From the NCBI GenBank assembly GCA_013151445.1, contig JAADIG010000136.1:6383-70382 (forward strand): 64,000 nt of DNA, written 5' to 3'. This document shows positions 26,362 through 40,944 of this stretch, piece by piece. The notes beneath the pieces are model-generated. The model was not told where the DNA came from, searched no databases, and worked only from the letters and a program-made list of their open reading frames with translations. The DNA comes from Actinomycetota bacterium. Lineage in GTDB: Bacteria > Actinomycetota > Acidimicrobiia > Spongiisociales > UBA5794. Made by a program: the position numbers and the translations under genes. The stretch's first letter is position 1. Each line of letters starts with the position of its first letter.

Positions 26362-26786
26362 CCGACGGGCGCATACTCGGTGTCGATCCCGGCGAACGCA
26401 GGATAGGCATCGCGTTATCCGACCGTGCCGGTATCATCGCGTCACCGCATGGAGTTATCGACACCAAACAGCATGACTTTGCGTCCCGCATTCGGGCGAT
26501 CTGCGCCGAAAACGACGTGGTGCTCATCGTCGTGGGGCGCCCGACATCGCTTTCGGGGTACGAGGGTCCGGCGGTCGACCGGGCAAAACGGATCGCCGCA
26601 CAAGCCCACAAAGCGACGGGGTTGCCCATCGAGTTCGTGGACGAGCGATTCACCACGAAACAGGCTGAACGGGCTCTCCTTGAGGGCAACGTCCGCAGAG
26701 CAGAGCGTAAGAAGATCATCGACAAGGTCGCCGCAAGTTTGATACTTCAGACCTACCTCGACAGACCAACGAGACACACACAATGA
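26358..26786 (+). CDS. ruvX: Putative pre-16S rRNA nuclease / Holliday junction resolvase-like YqgF
   Basis: ILGVDPGERRIGIALSD is the YqgF motif. The product is 142 aa and the start overlaps the alaS stop. Confidence 0.9.
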   Translation: MTDGRILGVDPGERRIGIALSDRAGIIASPHGVIDTKQHDFASRIRAICAENDVVLIVVGRPTSLSGYEGPAVDRAKRIAAQAHKATGLPIEFVDERFTTKQAERALLEGNVRRAERKKIIDKVAASLILQTYLDRPTRHTQ

Positions 26787-27919
26787 ACGAACAGTATTAC
26801 GTCGCCGAGCAAGAGCCCGAGCCACCAAACGGCACACCCTGGTGGCTGCCATGGCTCCTGCGAGCCGTCGGTGCCGCACTTGTAGTGGGCATCCTTGTCA
26901 TCGGTTGGGGTGTGTTGCGCAACAAGATCGAGGGCTGGGCAGACTCTGTCGGTGTCGCTGCCGGCGAGTCCGAAGTCGTGCTTGGAACCCCGGTGGAGTT
27001 CTCGATTCCCGATGGCGCTTCCGCGCGATCGATCTCGAAGATTCTCCGCGACACCGGCGTCATTACCGACGCCCGCAAGTTCGAGAAAACCGTTACCGAG
27101 AGCGGTGTGGCGAGCCAACTACGTGCGGGTGAGTACACACTTCCAGCGGGCTCATCGTTCGACGATGTAGTGGCTTTGTTGATCAAGGGTCCTCCCGGCA
27201 AGGACGTCTTTCGCCTGACAGTCATCGAGGGTCTGCGGATCGAACAGATGCTCGGATCCGTCGCAGAGGCGTCGGGTCTCACCGTTGCGGAGTTGGAGAG
27301 CGCCCTGCTGTCGGGCGAAGTCACGTCCGAGTATCTCCCGGCTGGGATACCCGAGGGCTCGTCCCCGCTGGTCGCCTGGGAAGGACTGCTCGCACCCGAC
27401 ACTTACGAGTTTGTTGTCGGGGCGACCCCCACGGATATTCTGCAAACACTGGCGACCACGCTCGAAGGAAGAATCGATGCCCAGGACTGGTCGAAGCTCG
27501 AAGCCGCTGGTTTTACGCCGTACGACGGGCTCGTGATCGCGTCCCTCATCGAGAAGGAGGCGAAGCTCGAAGAAGACCGACCGCTGATAGCCAGTGTGAT
27601 CGAGAACCGCCTCGAGGCGGGTATCGCACTCCAGCTCGATGCGACAGTTATTTACGCCCTTGGTGAGAATCCGGGCCGGGTACTCAAGTCGGATCTGCAG
27701 ATTGATTCACCTTGGAACACGTATAAGGTCGCCGGGCTGCCGCCAACACCGATCTCGGGGGTGCGGCTGTCGTCGCTCGCTGCGGCCGCGAATCCTGCCG
27801 ACACGAACTTCTTCTACTACGTTGTCATCTCCGCCGACGGTAAACACGGGTTCTCCGAAACACTTGCCGAGCACAACGCCAAGGTCGACCAGGCCCGCAA
27901 GGACGGTATTCTGCCGTGA
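26783..27919 (+). CDS. mltG: Endolytic murein transglycosylase MltG (YceG-like)
   Basis: It has an N-terminal TM anchor and a YceG domain (ASLIEKEA, DATVIYA, SPWNTY...GLPPTPI). Synteny is alaS-ruvX-mltG-aroE. Confidence 0.9.
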   Translation: MNEQYYVAEQEPEPPNGTPWWLPWLLRAVGAALVVGILVIGWGVLRNKIEGWADSVGVAAGESEVVLGTPVEFSIPDGASARSISKILRDTGVITDARKFEKTVTESGVASQLRAGEYTLPAGSSFDDVVALLIKGPPGKDVFRLTVIEGLRIEQMLGSVAEASGLTVAELESALLSGEVTSEYLPAGIPEGSSPLVAWEGLLAPDTYEFVVGATPTDILQTLATTLEGRIDAQDWSKLEAAGFTPYDGLVIASLIEKEAKLEEDRPLIASVIENRLEAGIALQLDATVIYALGENPGRVLKSDLQIDSPWNTYKVAGLPPTPISGVRLSSLAAAANPADTNFFYYVVISADGKHGFSETLAEHNAKVDQARKDGILP

Positions 27920-28725
27920 GCGGTGACGGATTACGTCTGGGGATACTCGGGCGCCCGGCCACCCATTCGCTTTCACCGGCGATACACAACGCGGCTCTCA
28001 TCGCCATGGGAATCATGGGAACCTACGAGGCGTGGGATGTGGACGCCGAGGGAGCGCGGGTGCGTCTGGGAGAGATTCGGACGGGGCGTTTCGATGGGTG
28101 CAACGTGACGATGCCATACAAACGCCTGGCCTTCGATGTCGTCGACGAACGCTCAGACCTCGCCACCCGGACAGGGGCGGTCAACACGGTCACCCGAGCC
28201 GACCGTGTGCTGATCGGGCACAACACGGATGTCGCTGGCATTACCGGGGCATGGGCCCGCCGCAAACTACCGGATGAGGGCCCCGTCTTGATCCTTGGTG
28301 CGGGTGGGGCCGCTGCCGCGGCAGCCGTCGCGCTCAGCGACCGCGAAATCGTGGTTAGTGCTCGTTGCGAGGATGATGCAAACCGGCTGTTGGACACGAC
28401 CGCCACCGCAGGCAGGACCGTACCCTGGGGGACACCGATCGTGGGTGTCGTGGTTAACGCGACCCCCATCGGGATGAATGGAGAATGCCATGATCGAGGA
28501 CTGGTCGACAGTGCAACCGGGTGGTTCGAGATGGTGTATGCACACGGTGAGACGCCTGGTGAACGACAATCACGTACTGACGGCAAACCGGTTGTTTCGG
28601 GGACGGACATGCTTGTCTACCAGGCTATCGCGGCGTTCGAACTCTGGACCGGCAAGACACCGAACATCGAGGTGATGTTGCGGGCGCTGCGTGCGGAGGA
28701 GAGGCACCGCAGTGACCAACAGTAG
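27916..28725 (+). CDS. aroE: Shikimate dehydrogenase
   Basis: GILGRPATHSLSPAIHNAA, NVTMPYK, NTD..G and LGAGGAA (Rossmann fold) are present. The product is 269 aa. Confidence 0.9.
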   Translation: MSGDGLRLGILGRPATHSLSPAIHNAALIAMGIMGTYEAWDVDAEGARVRLGEIRTGRFDGCNVTMPYKRLAFDVVDERSDLATRTGAVNTVTRADRVLIGHNTDVAGITGAWARRKLPDEGPVLILGAGGAAAAAAVALSDREIVVSARCEDDANRLLDTTATAGRTVPWGTPIVGVVVNATPIGMNGECHDRGLVDSATGWFEMVYAHGETPGERQSRTDGKPVVSGTDMLVYQAIAAFELWTGKTPNIEVMLRALRAEERHRSDQQ

Positions 28726-28846
28726 GTTACGCCAGCATCCGTCGTAGACAACCCCTCAAGCCCCCCATCGGGGGTGCCGACAAATTCTCAGATGCCCACG
28801 TTATTCGTGGGTCCGGGAACGAGGTTGGAACCGAGGGAGAGAAGAC

Positions 28847-30523
28847 GTGCCGAGCGACGCCCGCCATTTGGGCACCATGCTTTTGGAAGAGGGTCTTCTT
28901 AGCCGAGAGCAGCTCGATCAGGCGATTGAGACACAACAGACCTCTGGCGTTCCGTTGGGTCGCGTCCTGGTGGAGGAAGGCTTCGTTCTTGAGGCCGATC
29001 TTGTCCGCACCCTTGCCACCCAGATCGGCATCGGGTATGTCGATCTAAGCGAAGAGCAAATCGATCCGGCCGCGGTTGCCGCCGTGCCGGAATACTTGCA
29101 AGATCGTTACACGGTGCTCCCCATCGGCTACGAAGATGGGCGCCTCGTCTGCGCCATGGCCGACCCTGCGAATGTTCTTGCAATCGACGACCTCAGAGCC
29201 GTGACTGGTTTGGATATCGTGACCAAGGTCGCAACTCGTTCCGACCTTGAAGAAGCGATCCGCAGACAGTCGACGTTTGACGAATCGGTCTCCGACCTCG
29301 CCGACCTCGCCGCGGAAGAAGAGGGTGATGTTGATCTGGGCGGTCTCGAGATCGCCGCGGAAGAGGCACCTGTTGTCAAGCTGTTGAATACGCTGATCTC
29401 GCGGGCCGTCAACGAACGAGCATCAGACATTCATATCGAGCCAGGGGAGAAAGACCTTCGCATCCGGTTCCGTATCGATGGTGTCCTCCACGAGGTCATG
29501 CGGACCCCCCGGTCAATTTCCAACGCCGTCGTGTCACGTATCAAGATCATGTCCGACCTCAATATCGCCGAACGCCGGGTACCCCAGGACGGACGCATTT
29601 CATTGCGTGTATCGGGCAAGGCCATCGACCTTCGTACCGCAACGCTGCCCTCGATCTATGGCGAAAAAGTCGTCATGCGTATCCTCGACAAATCTGCCGG
29701 CGTCGCCCCTCTCGCCGACCTCGGTTTTGAACCCTACAACCTCGAACGCTTCAAGGAGGCGTACGAGAAACCCTATGGTGCGATCCTGGTCACCGGTCCG
29801 ACAGGGTCCGGAAAGACAACCACCCTGTACTCGACGCTTGACATCCTCAATAAGGAGGAGGTCAATATCATCACGGTGGAAGATCCGGTCGAATATCGAT
29901 TGAATGGGATCACCCAGGTCCAGGTCAACCGCAAGGCCGGCTTGCTCTTTGCAACGGCCCTCAAGTCGATTCTACGTGCCGACCCGGACGTCATCCTGAT
30001 CGGCGAGATCCGCGACGGGGAAACTGCCGCGATCGCCATCGAATCGGCACTCACCGGGCACCTCGTGCTGTCTACATTGCACACGAACGATGCCGCCTCG
30101 TCGGTCGGGCGCCTCATCGACATGGGTGTGGAGCCCTTCCTCGTGGCATCTGCCCTCGACTGCGTGTTGGCTCAGCGCCTTGCTCGGGTTCTCTGTGAGA
30201 AGTGTAAAAAGAAGGATTCTGCGATTACGGCAGCGATGCTCAAGGACGTTGGTTGGGATGAGGAGCTCCATGGGGACCCCAATGTGTACACCAAGGTTGG
30301 TTGCAAGGCGTGCTCCATGACGGGGTACAAGGGCCGTGTGAGCCTCACCGAGGTGATGCTGGTCAACGAAGAGATTCAACGCCTGATTGTCGATCGTACT
30401 TCCGCTGAGGTCATTGAGAGGGCAGCGTTTGCCTCAGGAATGCGATCCCTGCGCGACGACGGTTTCGCCAAGATCTCTCGTGGCATGACGACGTTCGAAG
30501 AGATCCTAAGGGTTGTCGCCTAA
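28847..30523 (+). CDS. pilB: Type IV pilus assembly ATPase PilB (GspE family)
   Basis: 558-aa ORF with an N-terminal T2SSE_N/MshEN-like tandem motif, Walker A VTGPTGSGKTTT, DVILIGEIRD, the His box TGHLVLSTLHTN, and the tetracysteine CEKC...CKAC typical of assembly ATPases. Confidence 0.92.
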   Translation: MPSDARHLGTMLLEEGLLSREQLDQAIETQQTSGVPLGRVLVEEGFVLEADLVRTLATQIGIGYVDLSEEQIDPAAVAAVPEYLQDRYTVLPIGYEDGRLVCAMADPANVLAIDDLRAVTGLDIVTKVATRSDLEEAIRRQSTFDESVSDLADLAAEEEGDVDLGGLEIAAEEAPVVKLLNTLISRAVNERASDIHIEPGEKDLRIRFRIDGVLHEVMRTPRSISNAVVSRIKIMSDLNIAERRVPQDGRISLRVSGKAIDLRTATLPSIYGEKVVMRILDKSAGVAPLADLGFEPYNLERFKEAYEKPYGAILVTGPTGSGKTTTLYSTLDILNKEEVNIITVEDPVEYRLNGITQVQVNRKAGLLFATALKSILRADPDVILIGEIRDGETAAIAIESALTGHLVLSTLHTNDAASSVGRLIDMGVEPFLVASALDCVLAQRLARVLCEKCKKKDSAITAAMLKDVGWDEELHGDPNVYTKVGCKACSMTGYKGRVSLTEVMLVNEEIQRLIVDRTSAEVIERAAFASGMRSLRDDGFAKISRGMTTFEEILRVVA

Positions 30524-30567
30524 AACGCCGATATTCACGACATGCGAAGCAGGGAGCACGTCTCGAC

Positions 30568-32187
30568 ATGGACACAGTCGATAGGGAACTAGGAGAAATC
30601 CTGGTTGACCGTAGATTGCTGACGCGCGATAGGCTTGAGGAGCATCTCCTCACGGTTGCTTCGTCAGGGACTCCACTGCCCCAGATCCTTGTTGAGGAGG
30701 GCGACGTCTCCGACCGCGATATCCTCGTTTCGGTAGCGGAGCGCCTCAAGGTACGGTTCGTGGACCTCGATGGCCCGGAACGTGTCTTCCCGGATCCGGC
30801 GGCTCTTCGCAAGCTCTCCGCCGACCTCGCACAAGAACTTCAGGTACTCCCGATCGAGATTGAGGAAAGTGGAGCTCTCGTCATCGCTGTCGACGACCCG
30901 CTCGACGAAAAGAGGGCCGAACTGGTCCGCCAAGCAGTCGGCCGCAATATCACGGTTGCACTCGCTTCACGCTCCCTGATCCAGGCCAGCATCGCCCCGG
31001 CCTACCTGGGTCTGAACATTGGATCGTCGCTCGGCGATGCGGCACAAGAGGGCACTACTCGTCAAGAAGTCCGTGAACCAATCACCGCCGATCTCGGTGG
31101 TGCCGCGGTTATCAAGGATCGCCCCCACGTCAATGATCTGCTGCGAGAACTCGTGGAACGGGGAGGGTCGGACCTTCACCTCACCGCCGGTTCGCCACCT
31201 CAGGTGCGCATCAACGGTTCGCTCTACCCGGTCGATGGGTTCGGCCTCCTGAAGCCTGCCCCATTGCGTTCGATGATCTATGAGATTCTCACTGGCCGCC
31301 AGCGCGAGGAGCTCGAAGAGACACGGGAGCTCGACGCCTCACATCCTGTGCCCGGCATCGGCCGTTTCCGTGTCAACGTATTCTTCCAACGAGACGCAGT
31401 AGCGTCCGTGATGCGTGCCATTCCGAACGAGGTGTACTCCCTTGAGGAATTGGGTATGCCTGAAATTGTTCGTGAGTTCGCGACGTACCAGCGCGGCCTC
31501 GTTTTGGTGACGGGACCGACGGGTTCCGGCAAGAGCACGACACTCGCATCAGTCATTGACCTCATCAACTCGTCGCGTGCCGACCACATCATCACTGTGG
31601 AAGATCCGATCGAGTTCACCCACCGCCACAAGATGTCGGTCGTCAACCAGCGAGAAGTTGGGACCGACACCATGAGCTTTGCGTCGGCTCTCAAACACGC
31701 TCTCCGTCAGGATCCCGATGTCATCCTCGTTGGTGAGCTTCGTGACCTCGAAACAATCGCGACGGCGATTACCGCGGCCGAGACAGGCCACTTGGTGTTC
31801 GCAACGCTCCACACCCAGGACGCTCCGAAATCTATCGAGCGAATCATCGACGTGTTCCCCCCACACCAGCAACAGCAGGTCCGGGTGCAGCTCGCCAGTT
31901 CGCTCCAAGCGGTGGTGAGCCAGCAGTTGTTGCGGACCAAGGATGGTACTGGGCGGGCCGCTGCGATCGAAGTGATGGTCGCGACGGCGGCGATCCGCAA
32001 CCTCATTCGAGAGGGCAAGGTCCATCAGATCGCATCGGCCATGCAGGCTGGTGGACGGTTTGGGATGCAAACCATGGATGCCGCGCTTGCGGAACTTGTC
32101 CGGAGAGGCACCGTAACGGAGACGCTCGCTCGCGAACGGTGCCAGGACCCTGATGTCTTTGACGCAATCATGCAAGGAGCCATGTGA
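30568..32187 (+). CDS. pilT: PilT-type retraction ATPase with extra N-terminal T2SSE_N/MshEN-like domain
   Basis: Residues ~186-539 form a PilT core with VTGPTGSGKSTT, ILVGELRD, TGHLVFATLHTQD and the PilT signature AIRNLIREGK. Residues 1-~145 resemble the GspE N-terminal domain (LGEILVDRRLL...RFVDLD...LPIEIEE..LVIAVDDP). Confidence 0.9.
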   Translation: MDTVDRELGEILVDRRLLTRDRLEEHLLTVASSGTPLPQILVEEGDVSDRDILVSVAERLKVRFVDLDGPERVFPDPAALRKLSADLAQELQVLPIEIEESGALVIAVDDPLDEKRAELVRQAVGRNITVALASRSLIQASIAPAYLGLNIGSSLGDAAQEGTTRQEVREPITADLGGAAVIKDRPHVNDLLRELVERGGSDLHLTAGSPPQVRINGSLYPVDGFGLLKPAPLRSMIYEILTGRQREELEETRELDASHPVPGIGRFRVNVFFQRDAVASVMRAIPNEVYSLEELGMPEIVREFATYQRGLVLVTGPTGSGKSTTLASVIDLINSSRADHIITVEDPIEFTHRHKMSVVNQREVGTDTMSFASALKHALRQDPDVILVGELRDLETIATAITAAETGHLVFATLHTQDAPKSIERIIDVFPPHQQQQVRVQLASSLQAVVSQQLLRTKDGTGRAAAIEVMVATAAIRNLIREGKVHQIASAMQAGGRFGMQTMDAALAELVRRGTVTETLARERCQDPDVFDAIMQGAM

Positions 32188-33410
32188 TGGCAGCAACGTT
32201 CGCTTACAAGGTTCGTGACAAACAAGGTCAGATCAGGACCGGCAAGATTGAGGGCCAATCACAGAGCCTGGTAGTCAAGTCGTTGCGCGAAAAGGGGCTG
32301 ACCCCGCTCTCTGTCGAGGAGCAGAAGAACTCCGCTCTGCAGATGGAGATCAAGATTCCGGGTCTCTCGGACCGGGTCAAGGCGAAGGACGTCGTGTTGT
32401 TCTCCCGTCAGTTTGCGACCATGGTCAATTCCGGATTGTCACTGATCCGAGCTCTCTCAGTCCTTGTCGATCAGACAGAGTCGTCGGCATTGGCGCTTGT
32501 TATCCGCACCGTGCGATCGGATGTCGAAAAGGGGACGTCACTCTCCCAGGCCATGGAGAAACATCCGAAGGTGTTCGGTGAACTCTACGTCGCAATGATC
32601 AAGGCCGGTGAAGTCGGTGGTGTTCTCGACGAGACCCTTGAACGTCTTGCTGACATGTTGGAAGCGAACCTCAACCTCCGGTCGAAGATCAAATCCGCCA
32701 TGGCGTACCCGATCGTCGTTGGTGTTTTGATTCTGTTTGTCACGACCGCGATGATCGTGTTCGTAGTTCCGATCTTTGCAGACATGTATGACGAGATGGG
32801 AGGAGGGGCCGCGCTCCCGGCACCCACCCTCGTGCTTGTCGCTTTGTCGAACATCATGACATCGTATTGGTGGGCCCTGATTCTTGGGACCGTCGGGTCT
32901 GTCTTAGGGTTCCGCAAGTGGAAAAGCACCGAATCTGGTCGGTACTACTGGGACACGATAAAGCTGAAGATTCCGGTGTTTGGAAAGCTTGCCCACAAAA
33001 CCTCGCTTTCGCGTTTCGCGCGAACCTTCGCAGTGCTCAGCCGCACCGGCGTACCGATTCTCCAGGCGATCGACATCGTCTCTGCCACGTCGGGAAATCG
33101 CAAGATGTCGCGGGCACTCGAAGATGTCAAGGCATCGGTACGCGATGGTGAGTCGCTCGCCGAACCACTTTCCCGGCACGACATCTTCCCCCCGATGGTC
33201 GTCCAGATGATGACTGTCGGTGAAGAGACCGGGGCACTCGATGCGATGCTCGGGAAGGTTTCCGACTTTTATAATCGCGAGGTTGACGACATGGTGAGCG
33301 CACTCACAAGCCTCATCGAGCCGCTGCTCATCGTCGTGATGGGCATCACCGTCGGGGGCATTCTGATAGCCCTCTACCTTCCGATCTTCAACCTCGCGGC
33401 GATCGTGTAA
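32187..33410 (+). CDS. pilC: Type IV pilus platform protein PilC (GspF family)
   Basis: ~407-aa polytopic protein with two GspF repeats (FSRQFATMVNSGLSL.RAL; FARTFAVLSRTGVPILQA). AAGGAG lies 7 nt before ATG 32187, which overlaps the pilT stop. GTG 32184 is also possible. Confidence 0.92.
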   Translation: MAATFAYKVRDKQGQIRTGKIEGQSQSLVVKSLREKGLTPLSVEEQKNSALQMEIKIPGLSDRVKAKDVVLFSRQFATMVNSGLSLIRALSVLVDQTESSALALVIRTVRSDVEKGTSLSQAMEKHPKVFGELYVAMIKAGEVGGVLDETLERLADMLEANLNLRSKIKSAMAYPIVVGVLILFVTTAMIVFVVPIFADMYDEMGGGAALPAPTLVLVALSNIMTSYWWALILGTVGSVLGFRKWKSTESGRYYWDTIKLKIPVFGKLAHKTSLSRFARTFAVLSRTGVPILQAIDIVSATSGNRKMSRALEDVKASVRDGESLAEPLSRHDIFPPMVVQMMTVGEETGALDAMLGKVSDFYNREVDDMVSALTSLIEPLLIVVMGITVGGILIALYLPIFNLAAIV

Positions 33411-33607
33411 CAACCTGACAGAGCCGTCCGGTTCGCCGAGGCGGCACCAAGGGTTGACGGATGCTTCGCTGGTTCCGCGACTGGCGCTCCGCCTGGACGT
33501 GGCAGTGAGAAATCGCTCAACTATTTTCCCCCATTCGCCGATGGAAACAGCACGGGTGAGTGATATTCACCGCCCCGTAATCTCATTATCTACATGGAGG
33601 TTTGCAT

Positions 33608-34108
33608 ATGCGTTGGATGCGCGAGCGTCTCGACAAAGAAGAGGGTTTCACCCTCATTGAGCTGATGGTTGTAGTGCTTATCATTGCAATTCTTGTTGCT
33701 ATTGCCATCCCGTCGTTCCTGGGTTTCCGCAGTCGTGCACAGGACCGTGCGGTCCAAGCCGAAGTGCGTAACGTTCTTCTCGCTGAGAAGGGTTACTGGG
33801 TTGACAACACGTCGTTCACGACGGTGCAGGCCGACCTGAAGGCATTCGAGTCGAGCATCGTCCTGGATGTCAGTACAACCTCCGCTGTCGAAGAGGGTGT
33901 TGTAGTCACGATGCCCGTTTCGTCGAACAACAACGTTGTGTGTCTCACGCGGACTAGCGATTCCGGCAACATCTTCGCGATCTTCGAAGACTCGTCAGCG
34001 ACCGGTGGTACGTTCTACAGGGCCGTAGCTTCAGGCAGCACACTTGCCTGCCCAACATCCGCAGGAGCACCCACTGGCTGGGTGACCGGCGGCTTCCCGA
34101 CTCCATAG
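33608..34108 (+). CDS. pilA: Type IV major pilin PilA
   Basis: The leader and cleavage site are MRWMRERLDKEEG|FTLIELMVVVLIIAILVAIAIPSF, a textbook class III signal with E5. Two C-terminal Cys residues form a D-region-like pair. GGAGG (33596-33600) lies 7 nt upstream of the ATG. Confidence 0.88.
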   Translation: MRWMRERLDKEEGFTLIELMVVVLIIAILVAIAIPSFLGFRSRAQDRAVQAEVRNVLLAEKGYWVDNTSFTTVQADLKAFESSIVLDVSTTSAVEEGVVVTMPVSSNNNVVCLTRTSDSGNIFAIFEDSSATGGTFYRAVASGSTLACPTSAGAPTGWVTGGFPTP

Positions 34109-34128
34109 AACATCTCGGATCAAACGCT

Positions 34129-34157
34129 AGAGAGGGACGGCGCGGCCGTCCCTCTCT
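34129..34157 (+). terminator. Perfect 13-bp GC-rich hairpin after pilA (putative intrinsic terminator, no U-tract)
   Basis: AGAGAGGGACGGC-gcg-GCCGTCCCTCTCT begins 21 nt after the pilA stop. All 13 pairs were checked by hand. Confidence 0.55.
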
Positions 34158-34247
34158 CGCGTCCCGGGCATCCGCGCCGGTGCCACGAGATTCCCCCATC
34201 CGCAGGTAGGGTCTCATGAGGCAAAATACCAGGAGGAGGTTGTCGAC

Positions 34248-35027
34248 ATGACTGATCAGGTCACAGTTCTTGGCCTTCTTGGCTTACTCGGACTCTCGAT
34301 TGGCTCGTTCATTAACGTTGTTGCGTATCGGGTCCCACTCAAACGATCGGTGATGCGTCCGCCCTCAGCGTGTCCCAACTGCAACCACAAATTGTCGTGG
34401 CGCGAGAACATTCCGGTTATCTCCTGGTTGGTGTTGCGCGGTACATGCAGTGAGTGCGGTATTCACTTTTCTATTCGATACCTCATCGTTGAGGTCCTGA
34501 CCGGTGTCGTCTTCGCGGGTACGGTCGCGGTCATCGGTGTTGACTGGGTGTTGCCCGCGTATCTCTGGTTCGCCGGCGTCACGATCACATTGACACTCAC
34601 CGACCTTGACCACAAGCTCATCCCGAATCGGATCTTGTATCCCGGAATCGTTGTTGGTGCCATTCTGCTGGTCGGGGGTGCCGTCGCGGCGGGGGACCCT
34701 CAAGGCGCGATCCGCGCACTCCTCGCAGGAGCGTCCTATTTTGGTGCTCTACTTGTGATCGCGCTCGTCGCTCCTGCCGGGGGATTCGGGTTCGGTGACG
34801 TGAAACTCGCGATTCTGTTGGGAATGTTCACCGGCTACCTGGGCTGGGGACAGATGAGCGTGGCGTTCTTCTTTGCATTTCTGTTGGGTGGAGTGCTCTC
34901 GATCTTGCTCCTGATCACCGGGACTAAGGGACGTAAGGACGCGATTCCGTTCGGCCCCTATCTGGTTCTCGGAGCGTATGTAGCCATAGTGGCGGGTGAT
35001 CGTATTCTGGATTGGTACCTCGCCTAG
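34248..35027 (+). CDS. pilD: Prepilin peptidase / N-methyltransferase PilD (peptidase A24)
   Basis: It has CPNC...CSEC cysteine pairs, the catalytic Asp motifs TDLDHKLIPN and GFGFGDVKL, and is polytopic. AGGAGGAGG lies upstream of the ATG. Confidence 0.92.
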   Translation: MTDQVTVLGLLGLLGLSIGSFINVVAYRVPLKRSVMRPPSACPNCNHKLSWRENIPVISWLVLRGTCSECGIHFSIRYLIVEVLTGVVFAGTVAVIGVDWVLPAYLWFAGVTITLTLTDLDHKLIPNRILYPGIVVGAILLVGGAVAAGDPQGAIRALLAGASYFGALLVIALVAPAGGFGFGDVKLAILLGMFTGYLGWGQMSVAFFFAFLLGGVLSILLLITGTKGRKDAIPFGPYLVLGAYVAIVAGDRILDWYLA

Positions 35028-35161
35028 TCCCATCGCGGGCTCGGAAATGGATTCGGTTTGTGGTGGTGATACTCCGATGCCTAAGCTCGTTTCAGATCAG
35101 TAGTTAGTCCTCGGCGCGCCCCCTAGCTACTGGAAGGCGGAGTTTTCTAGGTGGAGAAGAG

Positions 35162-36226
35162 ATGGCGGTCTCAATTGGGCTGGACATAGGCGGTGAAGCC
35201 GTCCGGGTCGCTGTCTTAGACACCTCGAAAGCGAAACGAACCCTCCGCCGATATGTCGAGATGCCTCTCCCCGCGGGAGCCGTGGTCGCTGGGGATATTC
35301 TTGATGAGGGCGCCGTCGCCGAAGTTGTTGCTGCGATCTGGAAACGCCACAAGCTTCCGCGCAGGGGTGTCGTCGTAGGAACCGCCAACCAGCGTCTGGT
35401 GGTTCGCCAGGTAGATCTTCCACAAATGGAAGAATCCGAACTCGCAGAGGCTCTGCCGTTCCAGGTGCAGGACTCGATCCCGATGGGCGTCGACGAAGCT
35501 GTGTTGGATTTCGTGCCACTCGAAGAGTTCGTGACGCCCGGGGGAGAGCCGATGATGTCCATCCTGGTTGTCGCCGTGCATCGCGACGTCGTTGATACGT
35601 TGATGCGGGTCCTGGGTGAGGCGAAGATATCGCCAAAGGCAATCGATCTGCAGAGTTTCGGCCTCGTCCGTGCGGTGTACGGAATGGCGCCTGCCGTTGA
35701 CAATCCACTTCAGCTCATCGTTGATATCGGTGCGACGGTGACTCAGGTCGTCATCGCCAAGGGTGGGTCGGCTCGGTTCGTCCGGCTGCTGCCCCGCGGA
35801 GGCGACGCGTTTACCAAGGCGCTTGAAGATGGCATGAACGTCGACCGGGAGGACGCAGTTGAAACGAAGGCGCGCGTCGGAGTGGAACCCGAGCGGGGAC
35901 TCGAAACCGACGACGCGGATGCACCAGCCAGAGGCATTCTGACCCAGGCTGGTGATCAGCTGATCGAAGAGGTCCGCGGGTCAGTCACATTCTTTCGGTC
36001 CCAGAACAACAACGAAGAAGTGGTGCGGCTGGTGGTCGCCGGCAACGGGGCACGGATGCCTCACCTGGCGAACCGGCTAGCAAGCGATCTCGGCATCCCG
36101 CTGGAGCCAGCCCGGATTCTCGACCTCGTCAACGTCGGTCGTGTCGGCCTCTCGGATGAGGAAATGCAAGCGGCCCAGCCGGTGCTGCCAACAGCAATCG
36201 GGTTGAGCCTCTGGGGAGAGCTCTAG
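35162..36226 (+). CDS. pilM: Type IV pilus assembly protein PilM (actin-like ATPase fold)
   Basis: 354-aa ORF with IGLDIGGEAVRVAVLD and DIGATVTQVV phosphate-binding-like motifs. It directly abuts pilN. Confidence 0.88.
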   Translation: MAVSIGLDIGGEAVRVAVLDTSKAKRTLRRYVEMPLPAGAVVAGDILDEGAVAEVVAAIWKRHKLPRRGVVVGTANQRLVVRQVDLPQMEESELAEALPFQVQDSIPMGVDEAVLDFVPLEEFVTPGGEPMMSILVVAVHRDVVDTLMRVLGEAKISPKAIDLQSFGLVRAVYGMAPAVDNPLQLIVDIGATVTQVVIAKGGSARFVRLLPRGGDAFTKALEDGMNVDREDAVETKARVGVEPERGLETDDADAPARGILTQAGDQLIEEVRGSVTFFRSQNNNEEVVRLVVAGNGARMPHLANRLASDLGIPLEPARILDLVNVGRVGLSDEEMQAAQPVLPTAIGLSLWGEL

Positions 36227-36844
36227 ATGCGTGCCATTAACCTGCTCCCTCCGGAGAGTTTTCAGAAACAGGCGACCCGACGCAAACTCGCAGGTGTCGT
36301 CATCGCGGGAATCGCATACCTGGCAGTGCTCGCTGTAGTCACGACGCTACTTGGCGGCCGGATCGGCGAGATCGAGAGCCGAATCGAAGTACAGCGGGCG
36401 ACCAACGACGGGTACCAGTCCCAGATCTTGGAGCTCGCCTCAATGGAGGACCTGCTTACCGAGTACGCGGCCCAGAGGGCCACGCTCGAAACCATCCTGG
36501 CACGCGACGTATCCTGGGGACGAGTGCTCAACGACCTCTCCCGGGTGATCCCCGATCGGACCTGGCTCACAAGCTTCAGCGGGTCGACCAACCTGGCCCT
36601 TGACACCCCCGGGGTCGGTTCGATCCGGATGACCGGTGTGGCGTTCGACTTCCCGGACGTTTCCGCGTGGCTGCGATCACTCGACGCTGACACGTTTCCG
36701 GCGGGTGAGGGGACGTGGGTGTCAACGATCATTGATTCGCTGGAGGGGGAAATCGAGGTACTGAACTACACGAGCCAAACGACGCTGACGGCCGCGGCAG
36801 ACGCGCAACGGCGTGAGGATCGAATTCCCGAGGTGAGCCCGTGA
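36227..36844 (+). CDS. pilN: Type IV pilus assembly protein PilN
   Basis: The N-terminal MRAINLLPPE is the conserved PilM-binding INLLP motif. It is followed by one TM helix and a coiled coil. Confidence 0.78.
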   Translation: MRAINLLPPESFQKQATRRKLAGVVIAGIAYLAVLAVVTTLLGGRIGEIESRIEVQRATNDGYQSQILELASMEDLLTEYAAQRATLETILARDVSWGRVLNDLSRVIPDRTWLTSFSGSTNLALDTPGVGSIRMTGVAFDFPDVSAWLRSLDADTFPAGEGTWVSTIIDSLEGEIEVLNYTSQTTLTAAADAQRREDRIPEVSP

Positions 36845-37542
36845 AGCGCACCACCCTCGCGTTCGGATTTCTTGGGGTCTTCTTGGTAACGTTGCTGTGG
36901 TGGACGTTCGTCATCGGCCCGCAGAACTCTGACGTCGACCGTGCGAATCAGGAATTGCAGGCCGAAGAGGACAGTACCCTCACACTGCAGACGCGACTTG
37001 CCAGGCTCAAAGAGATCAAGGCAAACGAGGTTTCGTATCAGTTTGCGATCGGAGCGATGCAGAGTTCGATTCCTGAGGAGCCCGAGCAGGCCGCCTTCAT
37101 CTCGGACATCAACTTTCTGGCTGACAGCACGGGTGTCCGTATCTCACAGGTGTCCCTGGCGCCACCGGCCCCGAGCCTATCCGAAACCGAAACGCCGGTG
37201 TTCGAGGTCGCTGTATCAGTCACGGTCACCGGCCAGTACTTTGAGGTGCTCGGATTCCTTTACGGGATCGAGGCGATGGACCGTCTCGTGAGAACCGATT
37301 CCATCACGCTCAGCCCGATTGAGACGGTTGATGAATCCGGCGATGGCGGGGAGGACGCCTCGGGGGACACCACGGTCAAGCAACGGCGTCCGGTGTCCGA
37401 GCTGACCATCGACCTGAACCTGCGGCTCTTTACGAGAACGGGTGTACTGGTAAAGCTCATCGACGAGGCAGTGACAGACGGCACGACGGCCGCTGACGGC
37501 AATACCGTGGACGATGGTGCCAGTCAGGTGGTCGGGGAATGA
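36841..37542 (+). CDS. pilO: Type IV pilus assembly protein PilO-like
   Basis: It has an N-terminal TM helix, a coiled coil (ANQELQAEEDSTLTLQTRLARLKEIK), a PilO-like core and an acidic C-terminal tail. The start GTG overlaps the pilN stop (GTGA). Confidence 0.7.
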   Translation: MKRTTLAFGFLGVFLVTLLWWTFVIGPQNSDVDRANQELQAEEDSTLTLQTRLARLKEIKANEVSYQFAIGAMQSSIPEEPEQAAFISDINFLADSTGVRISQVSLAPPAPSLSETETPVFEVAVSVTVTGQYFEVLGFLYGIEAMDRLVRTDSITLSPIETVDESGDGGEDASGDTTVKQRRPVSELTIDLNLRLFTRTGVLVKLIDEAVTDGTTAADGNTVDDGASQVVGE

Positions 37543-38057
37543 GGGCAGGCAACCGCTACATCGTGGCTCTCACGGGCTCATTGCTGCTTATCGCAGCGGG
37601 TGTTTTCGCAGGATGGATGATGATTTCTTCGGGAGTGCTCTCCTCGGTTTCCGAAGCATCCCAGGGACCATCACGGCCAATTGTCGCTGTCGCAGATGGG
37701 CTCGGGCAGGAAGCGCCGCCGGTCAACGTTGTCGCCGGTTCGTTCCAGTTGTCCCAACCGCGCGACCCCTTCCGACCGTTGGTCGGTGACGGATCTCGCG
37801 GTGGCCTCCCCGGTGTTGGTGGCGGGGGCGATGGTGGAACGTTCAACCCGTCCAATACGATCACACTTCAGGCAATTACGACGGTAGACGGGGTGTTGCA
37901 AGCAACTGTTGTGGTAAATGGGACGTCCTATCAGGTTGGCGTGGGAGACACCTTCGCTGGTTCATACAAGGTCGTGAGTCTGACGGCCGACAAGGGTGTC
38001 TTCATGTTCGGTGACACCGCGTTCGAGCTTGCGGTCGGCCAACAGATCCTGAAGTAG
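37539..38057 (+). CDS. Membrane-anchored PilP/GspC-HR-like protein (hypothetical)
   Basis: It has an N-terminal TM anchor, an RDPFRPL motif, a Gly-rich linker and a C-terminal beta-rich block (LQAITTVDGVLQATVVVNGTSYQVGVGDTFAGSYKVVSL). It is the last gene of the pilMNO unit (ATGA overlap). Confidence 0.45.
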   Translation: MRAGNRYIVALTGSLLLIAAGVFAGWMMISSGVLSSVSEASQGPSRPIVAVADGLGQEAPPVNVVAGSFQLSQPRDPFRPLVGDGSRGGLPGVGGGGDGGTFNPSNTITLQAITTVDGVLQATVVVNGTSYQVGVGDTFAGSYKVVSLTADKGVFMFGDTAFELAVGQQILK

Positions 38058-38087
38058 CGAGAACTCCGCTCTTGAGCGGAGCCCCGA

Positions 38088-38125
38088 GATGAGAGGGCCG
38101 CCGCCACGGCCCTCTCATCCTTTTG
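38088..38125 (+). terminator. Intrinsic terminator closing the pil cluster
   Basis: GATGAGAGGGCCG-ccgcca-CGGCCCTCTCATC is a perfect 13-bp stem followed by CTTTTG. A smaller hairpin (38064-38081) precedes it. Confidence 0.75.
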
Positions 38126-38170
38126 CCAGCCCACTTCCGTCGATTCGCCGAAAGCCCTACTCTCACACCC

Positions 38171-39319
38171 ATGTTTCGATATCTCACTGCAGGTGAATCT
38201 CACGGGCCGGGGCTGGTTGCTGTCGTTGAGGGACTTCCCTCGGGCATCGAGGTGACCGCTGAGAGCCTCTCCGACGAGTTGGCTCGTCGCCGATTGGGCT
38301 ATGGGCGTGGCAGACGCATGCGGCTCGAACAAGATGAGATCGAGTTTCTTGGGGGAGTGCGGTTCGGCAAGACTCTCGGGTCGCCGGTCGCGATTCTTAT
38401 CCGCAACACCGAGTGGCCCAAGTGGAAAGCGGAAATGTCGGCGGCACCCGGTGAGTCGGATCGACCGCTCACCACCCCGCGCCCCGGTCATGCCGACCTG
38501 GTCGGGATGATGAAATATGACACACGGGACGCCCGCGATATTCTTGAACGTGCCTCGGCCCGAGAAACTGCGGCGCGAACGGCCGTCGGATTCCTTGCGA
38601 AACGTCTGCTCGGTGTCGTCGGTGTCACCGTGTTCTCCCACGTGGTCGAGATCGGGTCCGTTGCATCCTCGGGTCCCACGCCTTCGTTTAGTGATCTTGG
38701 CGCAATTGATGCCTCGCCGGTCCGGGTGTTCGATGCGACTGCGGAGACCGAGATGATTGCGGAGATTGAGGCTGCCAGGGCCGACAGAGACACCCTCGGA
38801 GGTGTTGTTGAGGTGGTCGTTGAGGGTCTCGTCGCTGGGATCGGATCGCACGTCCACGGTGATCGACGTATCGACGCCCGGCTGGCGGAAGCGCTTATGT
38901 CCATTCAAGCGATCAAGGGTGTCGAGATCGGTGACGGCTTCGAGTCCGCTCGCCGCAGGGGTTCGGATGCTCACGACGAGATCTATCGGACCGAGGGGCA
39001 GTACACCCGTCACACCAACCGTGCCGGGGGTACCGAGGGTGGCATGACCGTGGGCGGAATGCTGCGTGTACGAGCTGCGATGAAGCCAATCTCGACGGTT
39101 ATGAAGCCGCTAGACACGGTGAATGTTGAAACACGACAAGCCGAAAAGGCCTTCCGCGAGCGCAGCGACGTGATTGCGGTGCCTGCCGCGGGCGTCGTTG
39201 CCGAAACCATGGTCGCAATCACCCTGGCGCAAGAGATGCAACGGATGTTTGGCGGTGACACCGTGGGAGATTTTGCGGCTGCCGTTGATCGCTATCGAAG
39301 CCGCCTCGAGGACTTCTAA
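38171..39319 (+). CDS. aroC: Chorismate synthase
   Basis: MFRYLTAGESHGPGLV is the canonical start, and RPGHAD and GGRSSARETA-like motifs are present. The ORF-track TTG at 38123 lies inside the terminator T-tract. Confidence 0.95.
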   Translation: MFRYLTAGESHGPGLVAVVEGLPSGIEVTAESLSDELARRRLGYGRGRRMRLEQDEIEFLGGVRFGKTLGSPVAILIRNTEWPKWKAEMSAAPGESDRPLTTPRPGHADLVGMMKYDTRDARDILERASARETAARTAVGFLAKRLLGVVGVTVFSHVVEIGSVASSGPTPSFSDLGAIDASPVRVFDATAETEMIAEIEAARADRDTLGGVVEVVVEGLVAGIGSHVHGDRRIDARLAEALMSIQAIKGVEIGDGFESARRRGSDAHDEIYRTEGQYTRHTNRAGGTEGGMTVGGMLRVRAAMKPISTVMKPLDTVNVETRQAEKAFRERSDVIAVPAAGVVAETMVAITLAQEMQRMFGGDTVGDFAAAVDRYRSRLEDF

Positions 39320-39321
39320 CA

Positions 39322-40883: not shown

Positions 40884-40944
40884 GTCCCACCTTGAAACAC
40901 GGCGGTCGGCGCACACAGTTCAACTTAGATTTGTGAGGAATTCA

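What the first reader, a model, noticed from the sequence alone, without database searches (positions are those of the whole stretch)
30568..31125. PilT retraction ATPase fused to an N-terminal GspE-N/MshEN-like domain with a degenerate ligand motif
PilT proteins are normally about 340-370 aa and lack the T2SSE_N domain found in extension ATPases. Here a bona fide PilT core (AIRNLIREGK signature, Walker A/B, His box; residues ~186-539) is preceded by about 145 residues resembling that domain, plus a linker of about 40 residues.

The two MshEN-type half-motifs are recognisable but eroded: ELGEILVDRRLLTRDRLEEHLLTV - ASSGT - PLPQILVEEGDVSDRDILVSVAER. In motif 1 the central Gly is replaced by Arg and the final Gln by Val. 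In motif 2 the Gly of the LG pair is replaced by Pro.

Both motors of the same pilus therefore carry paralogous sensor-like N-domains, one apparently intact and one divergent. That pattern would suit reciprocal or competitive regulation of extension versus retraction. I am not aware of a characterised PilT with this architecture.
Basis: partly seen in the sequence, partly recalled or inferred. Interest (0 to 1): 0.7.

Follow-up and report, generated by a model that had tools for sequence, protein, structure and literature searches.

The report
Pilus retraction motor with extension-motor N-domain
The pilus-retracting ATPase PilT of this actinobacterial genome carries the N-terminal domain that textbooks reserve for the pilus-extending motor. 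The domain is folded, translated and conserved, but its cyclic-di-GMP binding motif is altered in a fixed way, and no paper in the searched literature describes this architecture.

Summary
ORF 30568-32187 (+) encodes a 539-aa protein.

- Residues 188-528 are a genuine PilT core: TIGR01420 488.6 bits (cutoff 319.1), 56-58% identity to Geobacter PilT4, AIRNLIREGK present, no Zn tetracysteine.
- Residues 1-150 are a complete MshEN/GSPII (N1D) domain: Pfam 51 bits (cutoff 23.1), AF2 pLDDT 94.8, TM 0.72-0.73 to MshE and PilF-GSPII.
- A disordered linker of about 35 residues joins the two.

The N-domain is translated and constrained: dN/dS is 0.044 against a 92%-identical homolog.

The c-di-GMP motif fails both tests applied. 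NF053729 scores 30.3 bits (cutoff 38; the adjacent PilB scores 63.6), and Wang's relaxed regex finds no match. The departures are not random erosion, because they are fixed across about 100 Acidimicrobiia/Actinomycetota clusters (for example Gly10 to Arg in 83 of 101).

A second MshEN-PilT family of about 89 clusters exists in Armatimonadota. It has a different fixed deviation and sits in pilus clusters that contain GGDEF or HD-type genes.

The searched literature says PilT lacks this domain.

My best reading, which is inferred, is that the domain is a c-di-GMP-blind docking or regulatory module. It would let PilT engage the PilM/PilC platform as PilB does. Non-canonical ligand binding is not excluded.

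Verdict: new variant of a known kind, moderate interest.

The parts
30568..32187 (+). pilT gene encoding the 539-aa MshEN-PilT fusion protein (stop codon included)
   Evidence: ORF. TIGR01420 scores 488.6 bits against a cutoff of 319.1. Identical protein and cluster context.
30551..30556 (+). Shine-Dalgarno-like AGGGAG, 11 nt upstream of the ATG
   Evidence: Read directly from the sequence. The assignment is an inference.
30568..30753 (+). MshEN_N four-helix bundle (residues 1-62), the subdomain that binds c-di-GMP in MshE
   Evidence: AF2 helices 3-14, 20-33, 37-44 and 49-60 at pLDDT about 94-96. NF053729 matches residues 8-57 at 30.3 bits, below its cutoff of 38.
30586..30657 (+). Motif I (residues 7-30) ELGEILVDRRLLTRDRLEEHLLTV. 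The Leu-Gly pair is kept. Arg1 is Glu, Gly10 is Arg and Gln24 is Val.
   Evidence: Family consensus at these positions: Q/K-L-G, Arg at position 10 in 83 of 101, and A/E/V/S at position 24.
30658..30672 (+). Five-residue spacer ASSGT (residues 31-35)
   Evidence: The spacer length matches the MshEN definition.
30673..30744 (+). Motif II (residues 36-59) PLPQILVEEGDVSDRDILVSVAER. Gly3 is Pro, position 11 is Asp and Gln24 is Arg.
   Evidence: Family at position 3: Ala 50, Pro 22, Thr 20 of 101. Gly10 is kept in 96 of 101.
30754..31017 (+). MshEN_C alpha/beta subdomain (residues 63-150), equivalent to the GspE N1E part that binds GspL
   Evidence: Pfam MshEN covers residues 73-146 at 51 bits. AF2 secondary structure. 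Local fold matches to EpsE-N1E (2bh1) and the GspE:GspL complex (4pht).
31018..31128 (+). Disordered linker (residues 151-187), variable in length and sequence across the family
   Evidence: pLDDT below 50 for residues 152-183. Gapped and variable alignment columns. dN/dS 0.19.
31129..32184 (+). PilT core (N2D plus C-terminal ATPase domain, residues 188-539). Walker A is at 31513-31539, the Asp box at 31600-31614, Walker B at 31711-31746, the His box at 31783-31815 and AIRNLIREGK at 31990-32019.
   Evidence: Foldseek matches to Geobacter PilT4 (56-58% identity, target TM about 0.9) and P. aeruginosa PilT (about 50% identity).
28847..30523 (+). pilB extension ATPase, 558 aa, with an MshEN domain that passes the c-di-GMP motif model and a tetracysteine Zn motif
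   Evidence: TIGR02538 scores 632.6 bits (below its equivalog cutoff of 675.65). NF053729 scores 63.6 bits against 38. Cys450, 453, 486 and 489.
32184..38057 (+). Rest of the pilus cluster: pilC (32184/32187-33410, start overlaps the pilT stop), pilin (33602-34108), pilD (34248-35027), pilM (35162-36226), pilN (36227-36844), pilO (36841-37542) and a 172-aa ORF with no family hit (37539-38057)
   Evidence: ORFs. Pfam families of the identical genes on L001. No Pfam hit for the 172-aa ORF.

Best explanation
Shown:
- The gene encodes a PilT-family ATPase, and it is the only PilT in this pilBTCADMNO cluster. It is assigned as the retraction motor by family membership.
- Its N-terminus is a complete, well-folded MshEN/GSPII (N1D) domain tethered by a disordered linker of about 35 residues.
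- The domain is translated, is under strong purifying selection, and is conserved across a large Acidimicrobiia/Actinomycetota family.
- It fails both the strict and the relaxed c-di-GMP motif definitions in a fixed, family-wide way.

Inferred:
- In this clade the N-domain no longer binds c-di-GMP in the canonical way. The comparison cases are XpsE-N, PilF GSPII-A and Xanthomonas PilB-N.
- Instead it works as a protein-protein module. It would dock the PilT hexamer to the cytoplasmic platform (the PilM ring with PilN, and PilC) through the interface PilB uses, or it would recruit an adaptor.
- Because the neighbouring PilB keeps a motif that passes the curated model, c-di-GMP would act on PilB only.
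- PilT would then be a messenger-blind competitor for the same socket, so the extension/retraction balance would be set by the state of PilB.
For: Identity of the core:
- pilT_fam scores 488.6 bits against 319.1, and the PilB model only 191.8 bits against 675.65.
- Foldseek gives 56-58% identity and target TM about 0.9 to Geobacter PilT4.
- AIRNLIREGK and the Walker, Asp and His boxes are present. There is a single Cys, whereas PilB has the four-Cys Zn motif.

N-domain:
- Pfam MshEN scores 51 bits against 23.1.
- It is 35% identical to the PilB N-domain, E 2e-19.
- The AF2 model has pLDDT 94.8.
- Foldseek target TM is 0.72-0.73 to c-di-GMP-bound PilF GSPII-B and MshE. The best E-value is to PilF GSPII-A, which does not bind c-di-GMP. 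XpsE-N and the X. citri PilB-N:PilZ complex also match.

Translation and constraint:
- dN/dS is 0.044 for the N-domain, 0.19 for the linker and 0.013 for the core.
- About 100 of the top 120 homolog clusters share the architecture.

Motif loss:
- NF053729 scores 30.3 bits, below its cutoff of 38.
- None of 101 family members match Wang's relaxed regex.
- The deviations are fixed across the family.

Precedents from papers:
- XpsE lost binding through comparable changes, including G40L and Q61V (PMC5013675).
- PilF GSPII-A, with one good and one degenerate motif, does not bind c-di-GMP (PMC11731258).
- GspE/XpsE N-termini bind the PilM homolog GspL, and the GSPII-C domain is needed for PilMN stimulation of PilF (PMC6325625).

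Fold-level support for docking: the alpha/beta subdomain gives local fold matches to EpsE-N1E (2bh1) and to GspE in complex with GspL (4pht).
Against: - No binding or interaction was tested, so loss of c-di-GMP binding is inferred from sequence only.
- Half-site 1 keeps Leu-Gly and its Leu cluster. An Arg sits one residue upstream of the motif in 88 of 101 sequences, and in PilB too.
- The first motif residue is known to be dispensable in PilF GSPII-B, so partial or altered ligand binding remains possible.
- Within the clade, the motif-bearing four-helix bundle is more conserved than the alpha/beta subdomain presumed to do the docking (58 vs 40%, 85 vs 68% and 94 vs 92% identity). A pure docking model centred on the alpha/beta subdomain would not predict that.
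- In T. thermophilus none of the GSPII domains was required for binding PilMN, so N1D-to-PilM docking is not universal.
- Whether a second, short PilT exists elsewhere in this genome is unknown. None lies in the 64-kb window.
Confidence: 0.45

Rival explanations
1. The N-domain is still a nucleotide second-messenger sensor with a remodelled pocket. It would bind c-di-GMP, or a related ligand such as cGAMP or c-di-AMP, so that retraction is directly messenger-controlled, reciprocally to PilB.
For: - The MshEN fold is fully preserved.
- The four-helix bundle that forms the ligand site is the most conserved part of the domain. It carries invariant or nearly invariant residues (D21, D51, L53, G45, L8, G9).
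- Half-site 1 retains L-G and the Leu17/Leu21 cluster.
- Position 1 of the motif is tolerant to substitution (Lys or Leu in the 6-nM binder GSPII-B).
- MshEN can bind cGAMP.
- In Armatimonadota the analogous MshEN-PilT genes sit in clusters with sigma70-GGDEF and HD_5 genes. Another MshEN-PilT (P0191) neighbours a GAF-GGDEF gene.
- Some divergent members pass the NF053729 cutoff: P0191 56.5, P0127 48.7, P0137 45.8 bits.
Against: - In the window's clade, the residues that make the only polar contacts with c-di-GMP are lost. These are Gly3 of motif II and Gln24 of both motifs.
- NF053729 scores below its cutoff.
- None of 101 family members match the relaxed regex used by the authors who defined the domain.
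- The best structural and sequence neighbour is GSPII-A, which does not bind c-di-GMP.
- A crude motif scan found no convincing GGDEF, EAL or HD-GYP gene in the 64-kb window.
Confidence: 0.27
2. The N-domain acts in cis as an autoinhibitory or hexamer-organising module. It would fold back on the PilT ring to gate ATPase activity or oligomerisation, independently of the platform and of any ligand.
For: - The long flexible linker (pLDDT below 50 for residues 152-183) would allow the domain to fold back.
- In PilF, deleting GSPII domains alters complex formation, and the N1D ring moves with the nucleotide state.
- In C. thermophilum PilB, c-di-GMP binding at the N1D changes ADP affinity at the active site.
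Against: - There is no direct evidence here. No multimer model or predicted aligned error was available to show an N-domain-to-core contact.
- PilT hexamers form and function without such a domain in all characterised systems.
Confidence: 0.13
3. The protein is not a dedicated retraction motor. With an N1D it would behave as a second extension motor or a bidirectional motor.
For: - The N1D is otherwise a hallmark of extension ATPases.
- PilT is needed for extension of the V. cholerae MSHA pilus (PMC9815625, cited).
Against: - The core is unambiguously PilT-type by profile, fold and the AIRNLIREGK motif, and it lacks the PilB Zn motif.
- A separate bona fide pilB lies immediately upstream.
Confidence: 0.07
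4. Artefact: the true start is internal, or the fusion is an assembly or annotation chimera of pilB and pilT.
For: pilB and pilT are adjacent homologous genes. One representative (P0200) does look like a PilB/PilT mosaic.
Against: - dN/dS is 0.044 over the N-terminal 150 codons.
- The same architecture appears in more than 100 independent clusters from NCBI, JGI, ENA and Logan assemblies.
- A full pilB with its own stop codon lies 44 nt upstream.
- The protein-level alignment is conserved from residue 6 onward.
Confidence: 0.02

Closest known systems
PilT retraction ATPases (P. aeruginosa PilT 3JVV, Geobacter PilT4 6OJX/5ZFQ, T. thermophilus PilT2 5FL3)
   Same: The core, residues 188-539, matches these. 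Identity is 50-58% and target TM about 0.9. The Walker A and B, Asp and His boxes and AIRNLIREGK are all present. There is no Zn-binding tetracysteine. The gene sits between pilB and pilC.
   Different: This protein has an extra 187 residues at the N-terminus: a folded MshEN/N1D domain plus a linker. The characterised PilTs are about 340-370 aa and begin at the N2D.
MshE / PilB-type extension ATPases with a c-di-GMP-binding MshEN domain (V. cholerae MshE 5HTL; T. thermophilus PilF GSPII-B 8PDK; the window's own PilB)
   Same: The two-subdomain N-terminal fold is the same, and it has the same position in the protein, followed by a linker and the ATPase. The 24 + 5 + 24 residue motif register is recognisable.
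   Different: The ATPase core is PilT-type and not PilB-type. The key ligand-contacting residues are replaced (Gly3 of motif II, Gln24 of both motifs) and so is Gly10 of motif I. The curated motif model scores below its cutoff.
MshEN/GSPII domains that lost c-di-GMP binding: XpsE-N (2D27/2D28), PilF GSPII-A (9G1W), Xanthomonas citri PilB-N, which binds PilZ (7LKO)
   Same: The fold is retained with degenerate motifs. GSPII-A is the best PDB match by sequence and by Foldseek E-value. These domains act through protein partners (XpsL/GspL, PilZ-FimX) and not through direct ligand binding.
   Different: All of those are attached to extension or secretion ATPases. Here the domain is attached to a retraction-type core, and its partner is unknown.
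Armatimonadota MshEN-PilT family (P0137 and about 88 related clusters)
   Same: The architecture and length are the same (500-555 aa), with a PilT-family core that passes its cutoff (for example P0137 at 484.8 bits) and a conserved non-canonical motif.
   Different: The fixed deviation is different: motif I is Q-L-A and motif II is an invariant W-L-G. In the three loci examined, this protein occurs as a second PilT beside a short PilT, in clusters carrying sigma70-GGDEF and/or HD_5 genes. The N-domain groups with non-actinobacterial PilB N-domains in a rough tree, which suggests an independent origin.

Membership tests
PilT/PilU family type IVa pilus ATPase (TIGR01420) | Whole-protein score above the curated cutoff of the family model | tested here: met
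   488.6 bits against a cutoff of 319.1, covering residues 188-528 and model positions 2-341 of 343.
PilT/PilU family type IVa pilus ATPase (TIGR01420) | PilT signature AIRNLIREGK plus the Walker A, Asp box, Walker B and His box | tested here: met
   AIRNLIREGK at residues 475-484, GPTGSGKST at 316-324, EDPIE at 345-349, DPDVILVGELRD at 382-393 and TGHLVFATLHT at 406-416.
PilT/PilU family type IVa pilus ATPase (TIGR01420) | Two-domain N2D + CTD fold of solved PilT structures, without the PilB tetracysteine Zn motif | tested here: met
   Foldseek target TM about 0.9 and 56-58% identity to Geobacter PilT4. PilT has one Cys, whereas PilB has Cys450, 453, 486 and 489.
PilT/PilU family type IVa pilus ATPase (TIGR01420) | Canonical architecture of about 340-370 aa with no N1D/GSPII domain, as stated in the literature | tested here: not met
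   The protein is 539 aa with MshEN at residues 1-150. This is the feature that makes it a variant.
PilT/PilU family type IVa pilus ATPase (TIGR01420) | Powers pilus retraction | not testable with these tools
   This needs genetics or microscopy. The only supporting context is the position between pilB and pilC.
MshEN / T2SSE_N / GSPII domain (PF05157) | Pfam score above the gathering threshold | tested here: met
   51.1 bits against 23.1 for residues 73-146.
MshEN / T2SSE_N / GSPII domain (PF05157) | Four-helix bundle (MshEN_N) followed by an alpha/beta subdomain (MshEN_C) | tested here: met
   AF2 model at pLDDT 94.8 with four helices followed by an alpha/beta subdomain. Target TM 0.72-0.73 to 5HTL and 8PDK over 139-140 columns.
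c-di-GMP-binding MshEN (Wang et al. 2016; NF053729) | Tandem 24-residue motifs RLGxx(L/V/I)(L/V/I)xxG(L/V/I)(L/V/I)xxxxLxxxLxxQ with a 5-residue spacer, or the authors' relaxed form | tested here: not met
   The register and spacer are kept. Motif I fails at positions 1, 10 and 24. Motif II fails at positions 3 and 11. The relaxed regex finds no match in the window protein or in any of 101 family members.
c-di-GMP-binding MshEN (Wang et al. 2016; NF053729) | Score above the curated cutoff of the NCBIfam c-di-GMP motif model | tested here: not met
   30.3 bits against a cutoff of 38. The adjacent PilB scores 63.6 bits.
c-di-GMP-binding MshEN (Wang et al. 2016; NF053729) | Binds c-di-GMP | not testable with these tools
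   This needs ITC or DRaCALA. Sequence precedents (XpsE, GSPII-A) argue against binding.
PilB type IV-A pilus assembly ATPase (TIGR02538) | Score above the equivalog cutoff | tested here: not met
   191.8 bits against 675.65.

The most novel reading that the evidence does not exclude
The N1D/MshEN domain is not a hallmark of extension motors. Retraction ATPases in at least two phyla (Actinomycetota and Armatimonadota) have captured it, probably independently, from PilB. Each lineage then fixed a different non-canonical version of the c-di-GMP site. If these domains bind a messenger or dock to PilM, then retraction, and not only extension, is controlled at the motor itself. That would be a layer of type IV pilus regulation that has not been described. 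The window's clade would be the case in which the fused PilT is the only PilT of the cluster.
Probability: 0.4. Interest if true: 0.7.

Novelty: new variant of a known kind. Interest (0 to 1): 0.55.

Why it matters
Reviews and primary papers use the N-terminal GSPII/MshEN domain to tell extension motors (PilB) from retraction motors (PilT), and they argue that PilT cannot be directly c-di-GMP regulated because it lacks that domain.

A conserved family of PilT proteins with this domain contradicts that rule. The domain is folded and under purifying selection, the family spans hundreds of sequences, and it occurs in two phyla.

The family also offers a natural experiment on two open questions. 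The first is what the N1D actually does at the PilM/PilC platform, since here the same domain type sits on both antagonistic motors of one machine. The second is how the motors exchange.

The finding has a practical consequence for annotation. The Pfam architecture MshEN+T2SSE is identical for PilB and for these PilTs, so architecture-based classification will mislabel them.

The limits are clear. Both parts are well-known domains, the discovery is a domain-architecture variant, and the functional consequences are inferred.

Tried and rejected
1. Internal start or untranslated upstream region: rejected. dN/dS is 0.044 over codons 1-150, and the protein alignment is conserved from residue 6.

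2. Assembly chimera of pilB and pilT: rejected. A complete pilB with its own stop lies 44 nt upstream, and more than 100 independent clusters share the architecture.

3. 'Random erosion' of the motif: rejected. The substitutions are fixed across the family.

4. I first labelled the divergent representatives (P0137 and others) 'motif-intact' because they pass the NF053729 cutoff. The family-wide analysis withdrew that label. The Armatimonadota family is also non-canonical (Q-L-A and W-L-G), and none of its 89 members match the relaxed regex.

5. The genome-contig scan gave mostly short PilTs.

6. Long in-frame stretches upstream of many actinobacterial pilT genes, and about 60 'extended' representatives, showed no Pfam domain. 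These are probably Pro-rich disordered tails or over-called starts in high-GC DNA, and not hidden MshEN domains.

7. A crude regex scan for GGDEF, EAL and HD-GYP genes in the window found nothing convincing. This is weak negative evidence, and no profile search of all window ORFs was done.

8. The NJ tree of N-domains has no support values and was aligned to a PilT-N HMM. I use it only as a hint of multiple origins.

9. I could not obtain predicted aligned error, a multimer model or a ligand-docked model.
Full report
**1. What is there**

The window carries a type IV pilus cluster on the + strand:
- pilB, 28847-30523
- pilT, 30568-32187
- pilC, 32184/32187-33410
- a pilin, 33602-34108
- pilD, 34248-35027
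- pilM, pilN and pilO, 35162-37542
- a 172-aa ORF with no family hit, 37539-38057

The identical cluster on an independent assembly (L001) has matching Pfam calls. It is inserted between aroE and aroC of the conserved alaS-ruvX-mltG-aroE-aroC-aroK-aroB-pepP-efp block. Named homologs come from Acidimicrobiia or Actinomycetota MAGs.

**2.

The pilT ORF encodes 539 aa. It starts at the first possible start codon after the upstream in-frame stop and is preceded by AGGGAG 11 nt upstream. The pilB stop lies 44 nt upstream, and the pilT stop overlaps the pilC start.

The core:
- Residues 188-528 score 488.6 bits on the PilT/PilU family model (cutoff 319.1). The PilB model scores only 191.8 bits against 675.65.
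- A full-length AlphaFold2 model (mean pLDDT 85.4) matches Geobacter PilT4 at 56-58% identity with target TM about 0.9, and P. aeruginosa PilT at about 50% identity.
- AIRNLIREGK and the Walker A and B, Asp and His boxes are present. The protein has one cysteine, whereas PilB has the tetracysteine Zn motif.

The N-terminal region:
- Residues 73-146 pass Pfam MshEN at 51.1 bits against 23.1.
- The whole of residues 5-146 aligns to the GSPII domains of T. thermophilus PilF and to the PilB N-domains of Geobacter (E down to 9e-22).
- It is 35% identical to the N-domain of the adjacent PilB (E 2e-19).
- A model of residues 1-151 has pLDDT 94.8. It shows a four-helix bundle followed by an alpha/beta subdomain.
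- That model superposes on c-di-GMP-bound MshE (5HTL) and PilF GSPII-B at target TM 0.72-0.73. The best E-value is to PilF GSPII-A.
- Residues 152-183 are predicted disordered.

**3. It is translated and constrained**

I compared the gene with a homolog 92% identical at the protein level (L084). dN/dS is 0.044 for codons 1-150, 0.19 for the linker and 0.013 for the core. dS for this pair is about 1-2, close to saturation. More distant pairs are saturated at synonymous sites.

In all three comparisons the four-helix bundle is better conserved than the alpha/beta subdomain: 94 vs 92%, 85 vs 68% and 58 vs 40% identity.

The profile and fold results in section 2 remove the second (region unrelated to T2SSE_N).

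**4. The motif is altered in a fixed way, not eroded**

[quoted passage not shown] The only polar contacts to c-di-GMP come from the backbone amides at Gly3 and the next residue, and from Gln24 (PMC5013675).

The window protein keeps the register and the spacer. Its two motifs read:
- Motif I: E-L-G ... R(10) ... V(24)
- Motif II: P-L-P(3) ... G(10)-D(11) ... R(24)

The curated NCBIfam motif model gives 30.3 bits against a cutoff of 38. PilB gives 63.6 bits.

Across 101 family members the deviations are conserved:
- Motif I position 10 is Arg in 83 sequences.
- Motif I position 24 is Ala, Glu, Val or Ser.
- Motif II position 1 is Pro in 80 sequences.
- Motif II position 3 is Ala (50), Pro (22) or Thr (20).
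- L8, G9, L12, V13, D21, L23, E24, G45, V47, D51, L53 and P111 are invariant or nearly so.

None of the 101 match the relaxed regex used by the authors who defined the domain.

Two precedents bear on binding. XpsE lost c-di-GMP binding through changes that include G40L and Q61V. PilF GSPII-A, with one good and one degenerate motif, does not bind. Against that, position 1 is dispensable, since it is Lys or Leu in the 6-nM binder GSPII-B.

**5. How widespread it is**

Of the 120 best clusters at 90% identity, about 100 are 507-551 aa with MshEN + T2SSE.

I also searched 1.84 billion representatives clustered at 50% identity. Among the top 150 hits, 15 carry an MshEN-like N-domain by a family HMM. 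All ten of those that I tested pass the PilT family cutoff.

Their motif-model scores vary:
- P0191 scores 56.5, P0127 48.7, P0137 45.8 and P0179 38.1 bits. All of these are at or above the cutoff of 38.
- P0195 scores 21.6 bits.
- P0122, P0130, P0170 and P0205 give no hit.

P0137 belongs to a second large family of about 89 clusters, with named members from Armatimonadota. This family is also non-canonical, and in a different fixed way. Motif I is Q-L-A, with Gly3 changed to Ala in 78 of 89. Motif II is an invariant W-L-G.

In the three Armatimonadota loci examined, the gene closes a cluster of this form: [short PilT - PilC - sigma70-GGDEF - pilins - DUF7305 - HD_5 gene or PilB - MshEN-PilT]. 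P0191 neighbours a GAF-GGDEF gene.

A rough NJ tree of N-domains puts the window clade with most other PilT N-domains. It places P0137/P0170/P0205 and P0179/P0191 among PilB N-domains of other phyla. This is consistent with two or more independent captures of the domain, but the tree has no support values.

Other N-terminally extended PilTs, about 60 of the 150, have no Pfam domain in the extension. The exceptions are two HEAT fusions and one WD40 fusion.

Within Acidimicrobiia both architectures occur. L008, L010 and L050 have short PilTs, and L014 has the fused form.

**6. What the literature says**

[quoted passage not shown] It also says the N1D likely interfaces with the stator, and that the extension and retraction ATPases compete for it (PMC11656802).
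- Roelofs et al. [quoted passage not shown]
- The paper that defined MshEN lists fusions to ATPase, glycosyltransferase, REC, HD-GYP, CheA and other domains. Neither its text nor its supplement mentions a PilT-type architecture.
- Searches combining PilT with MshEN, T2SSE_N, GSPII or Acidimicrobiia found no description of such a protein.

The library is limited to open-access papers and bioRxiv, so absence there is not proof of absence.

**7. Mechanism**

Shown: a PilT-family motor carries a folded, constrained N1D on a flexible tether, and the canonical c-di-GMP determinants are replaced family-wide.

Inferred (confidence about 0.45): the domain is blind to c-di-GMP and works as a protein-protein module. 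It would dock PilT to the PilM/PilN/PilC platform, or to an adaptor. The basis is that GspE and XpsE N-termini bind GspL, that Xanthomonas PilB-N binds PilZ, and that PilF GSPII-C mediates stimulation by PilMN. Because PilB keeps a motif that passes the model, c-di-GMP would tune PilB only, and PilT would compete for the same socket.

Main rival (about 0.27): a remodelled ligand site that still senses a nucleotide. The arguments for it are the higher conservation of the four-helix bundle, the retained half-site 1, and the association with c-di-GMP genes in the Armatimonadota family.

Minor rivals: cis autoinhibition or hexamer control (0.13), a non-retraction role (0.07) and an artefact (0.02).

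**8. Verdict**

This is a new variant of a known kind. Two familiar domains occur in a combination that the field's rule of thumb says does not occur. The combination is conserved, and in two phyla.

Interest is moderate (0.55). The finding is surprising to a pilus specialist and directly testable, but it is a domain-architecture variant whose functional meaning is still inferred.

Noticed in passing
window 26783-42000: The whole pilBTCADMNO cluster, plus a 172-aa ORF with no family hit (37539-38057), is inserted between aroE and aroC. The surrounding block is the otherwise conserved alaS-ruvX-mltG-aroE-aroC-aroK-aroB-pepP-efp.
   Followed up: partly
P0015, P0027, P0044, P0121-P0131 and others; loci L055, L061, L062, L065, L068-L070, L073, L076, L077: Single proteins of 694-1024 aa carry two full PilT cores in tandem. 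They are frequent among the best hits (Chondromyces, Arenimonas, Nitrospira, Polyangiales, Eremiobacterota, Elusimicrobia). They have no MshEN domain.
   Followed up: no
L029:1724-4999 (+), Rubrobacter sp. MAG: A PilB-type ATPase has the architecture MshEN-MshEN-REC-MshEN-T2SSE in a 1092-aa open frame. Triple GSPII domains are said in PMC11731258 to be reported only in Deinococcus-Thermus, and the inserted receiver domain is an extra twist.
   Followed up: partly
P0200 (539 aa, metagenomic representative): The PilB model matches residues 7-430 (435 bits), and the PilT family model also passes (389.8 bits over residues 180-528). Its N-domain groups with an actinobacterial PilB N-domain, and its c-di-GMP motif is nearly canonical (57.4 bits). 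It could be a natural PilB/PilT recombinant or an assembly chimera.
   Followed up: partly
L082:2014-3327 and L088:2230-3546 (Armatimonadota): A sigma-70 (regions 2-4) fused to a GGDEF domain is encoded inside the pilus gene cluster, between pilC and the pilins. It occurs in two independent genomes.
   Followed up: no
L010:2513-3514 (+), Acidimicrobiaceae MAG: In a genome whose PilT is short, a stand-alone 334-aa ORF carries an MshEN domain (65 bits) and no ATPase core. It lies just upstream of pilB. It might be a split counterpart of the fused N-domain.
   Followed up: no
P0133-P0268 (63 representatives): Many PilT-clade proteins carry N-terminal extensions of 75-550 aa with no Pfam domain and a proline-rich consensus. 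Two have HEAT-repeat fusions and one has a WD40 fusion. Some extensions may be over-called starts in high-GC genomes.
   Followed up: partly
window 30568-30753 vs 30754-31017: Within the clade, the four-helix bundle that carries the altered motif is more conserved than the alpha/beta subdomain: 94 vs 92%, 85 vs 68% and 58 vs 40% identity at three evolutionary distances. This is the opposite of what a decaying ligand site would show.
   Followed up: yes
window 28847-29020 (PilB residues 1-58) and 30568-30744: PilB and about 88% of the PilT family both place the Arg one residue before the 'x-L-G' of motif I (R-H-L-G in PilB, R-Q-L-G in the PilT family). This is a lineage-specific shift of the canonical R-L-G.
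   Followed up: no
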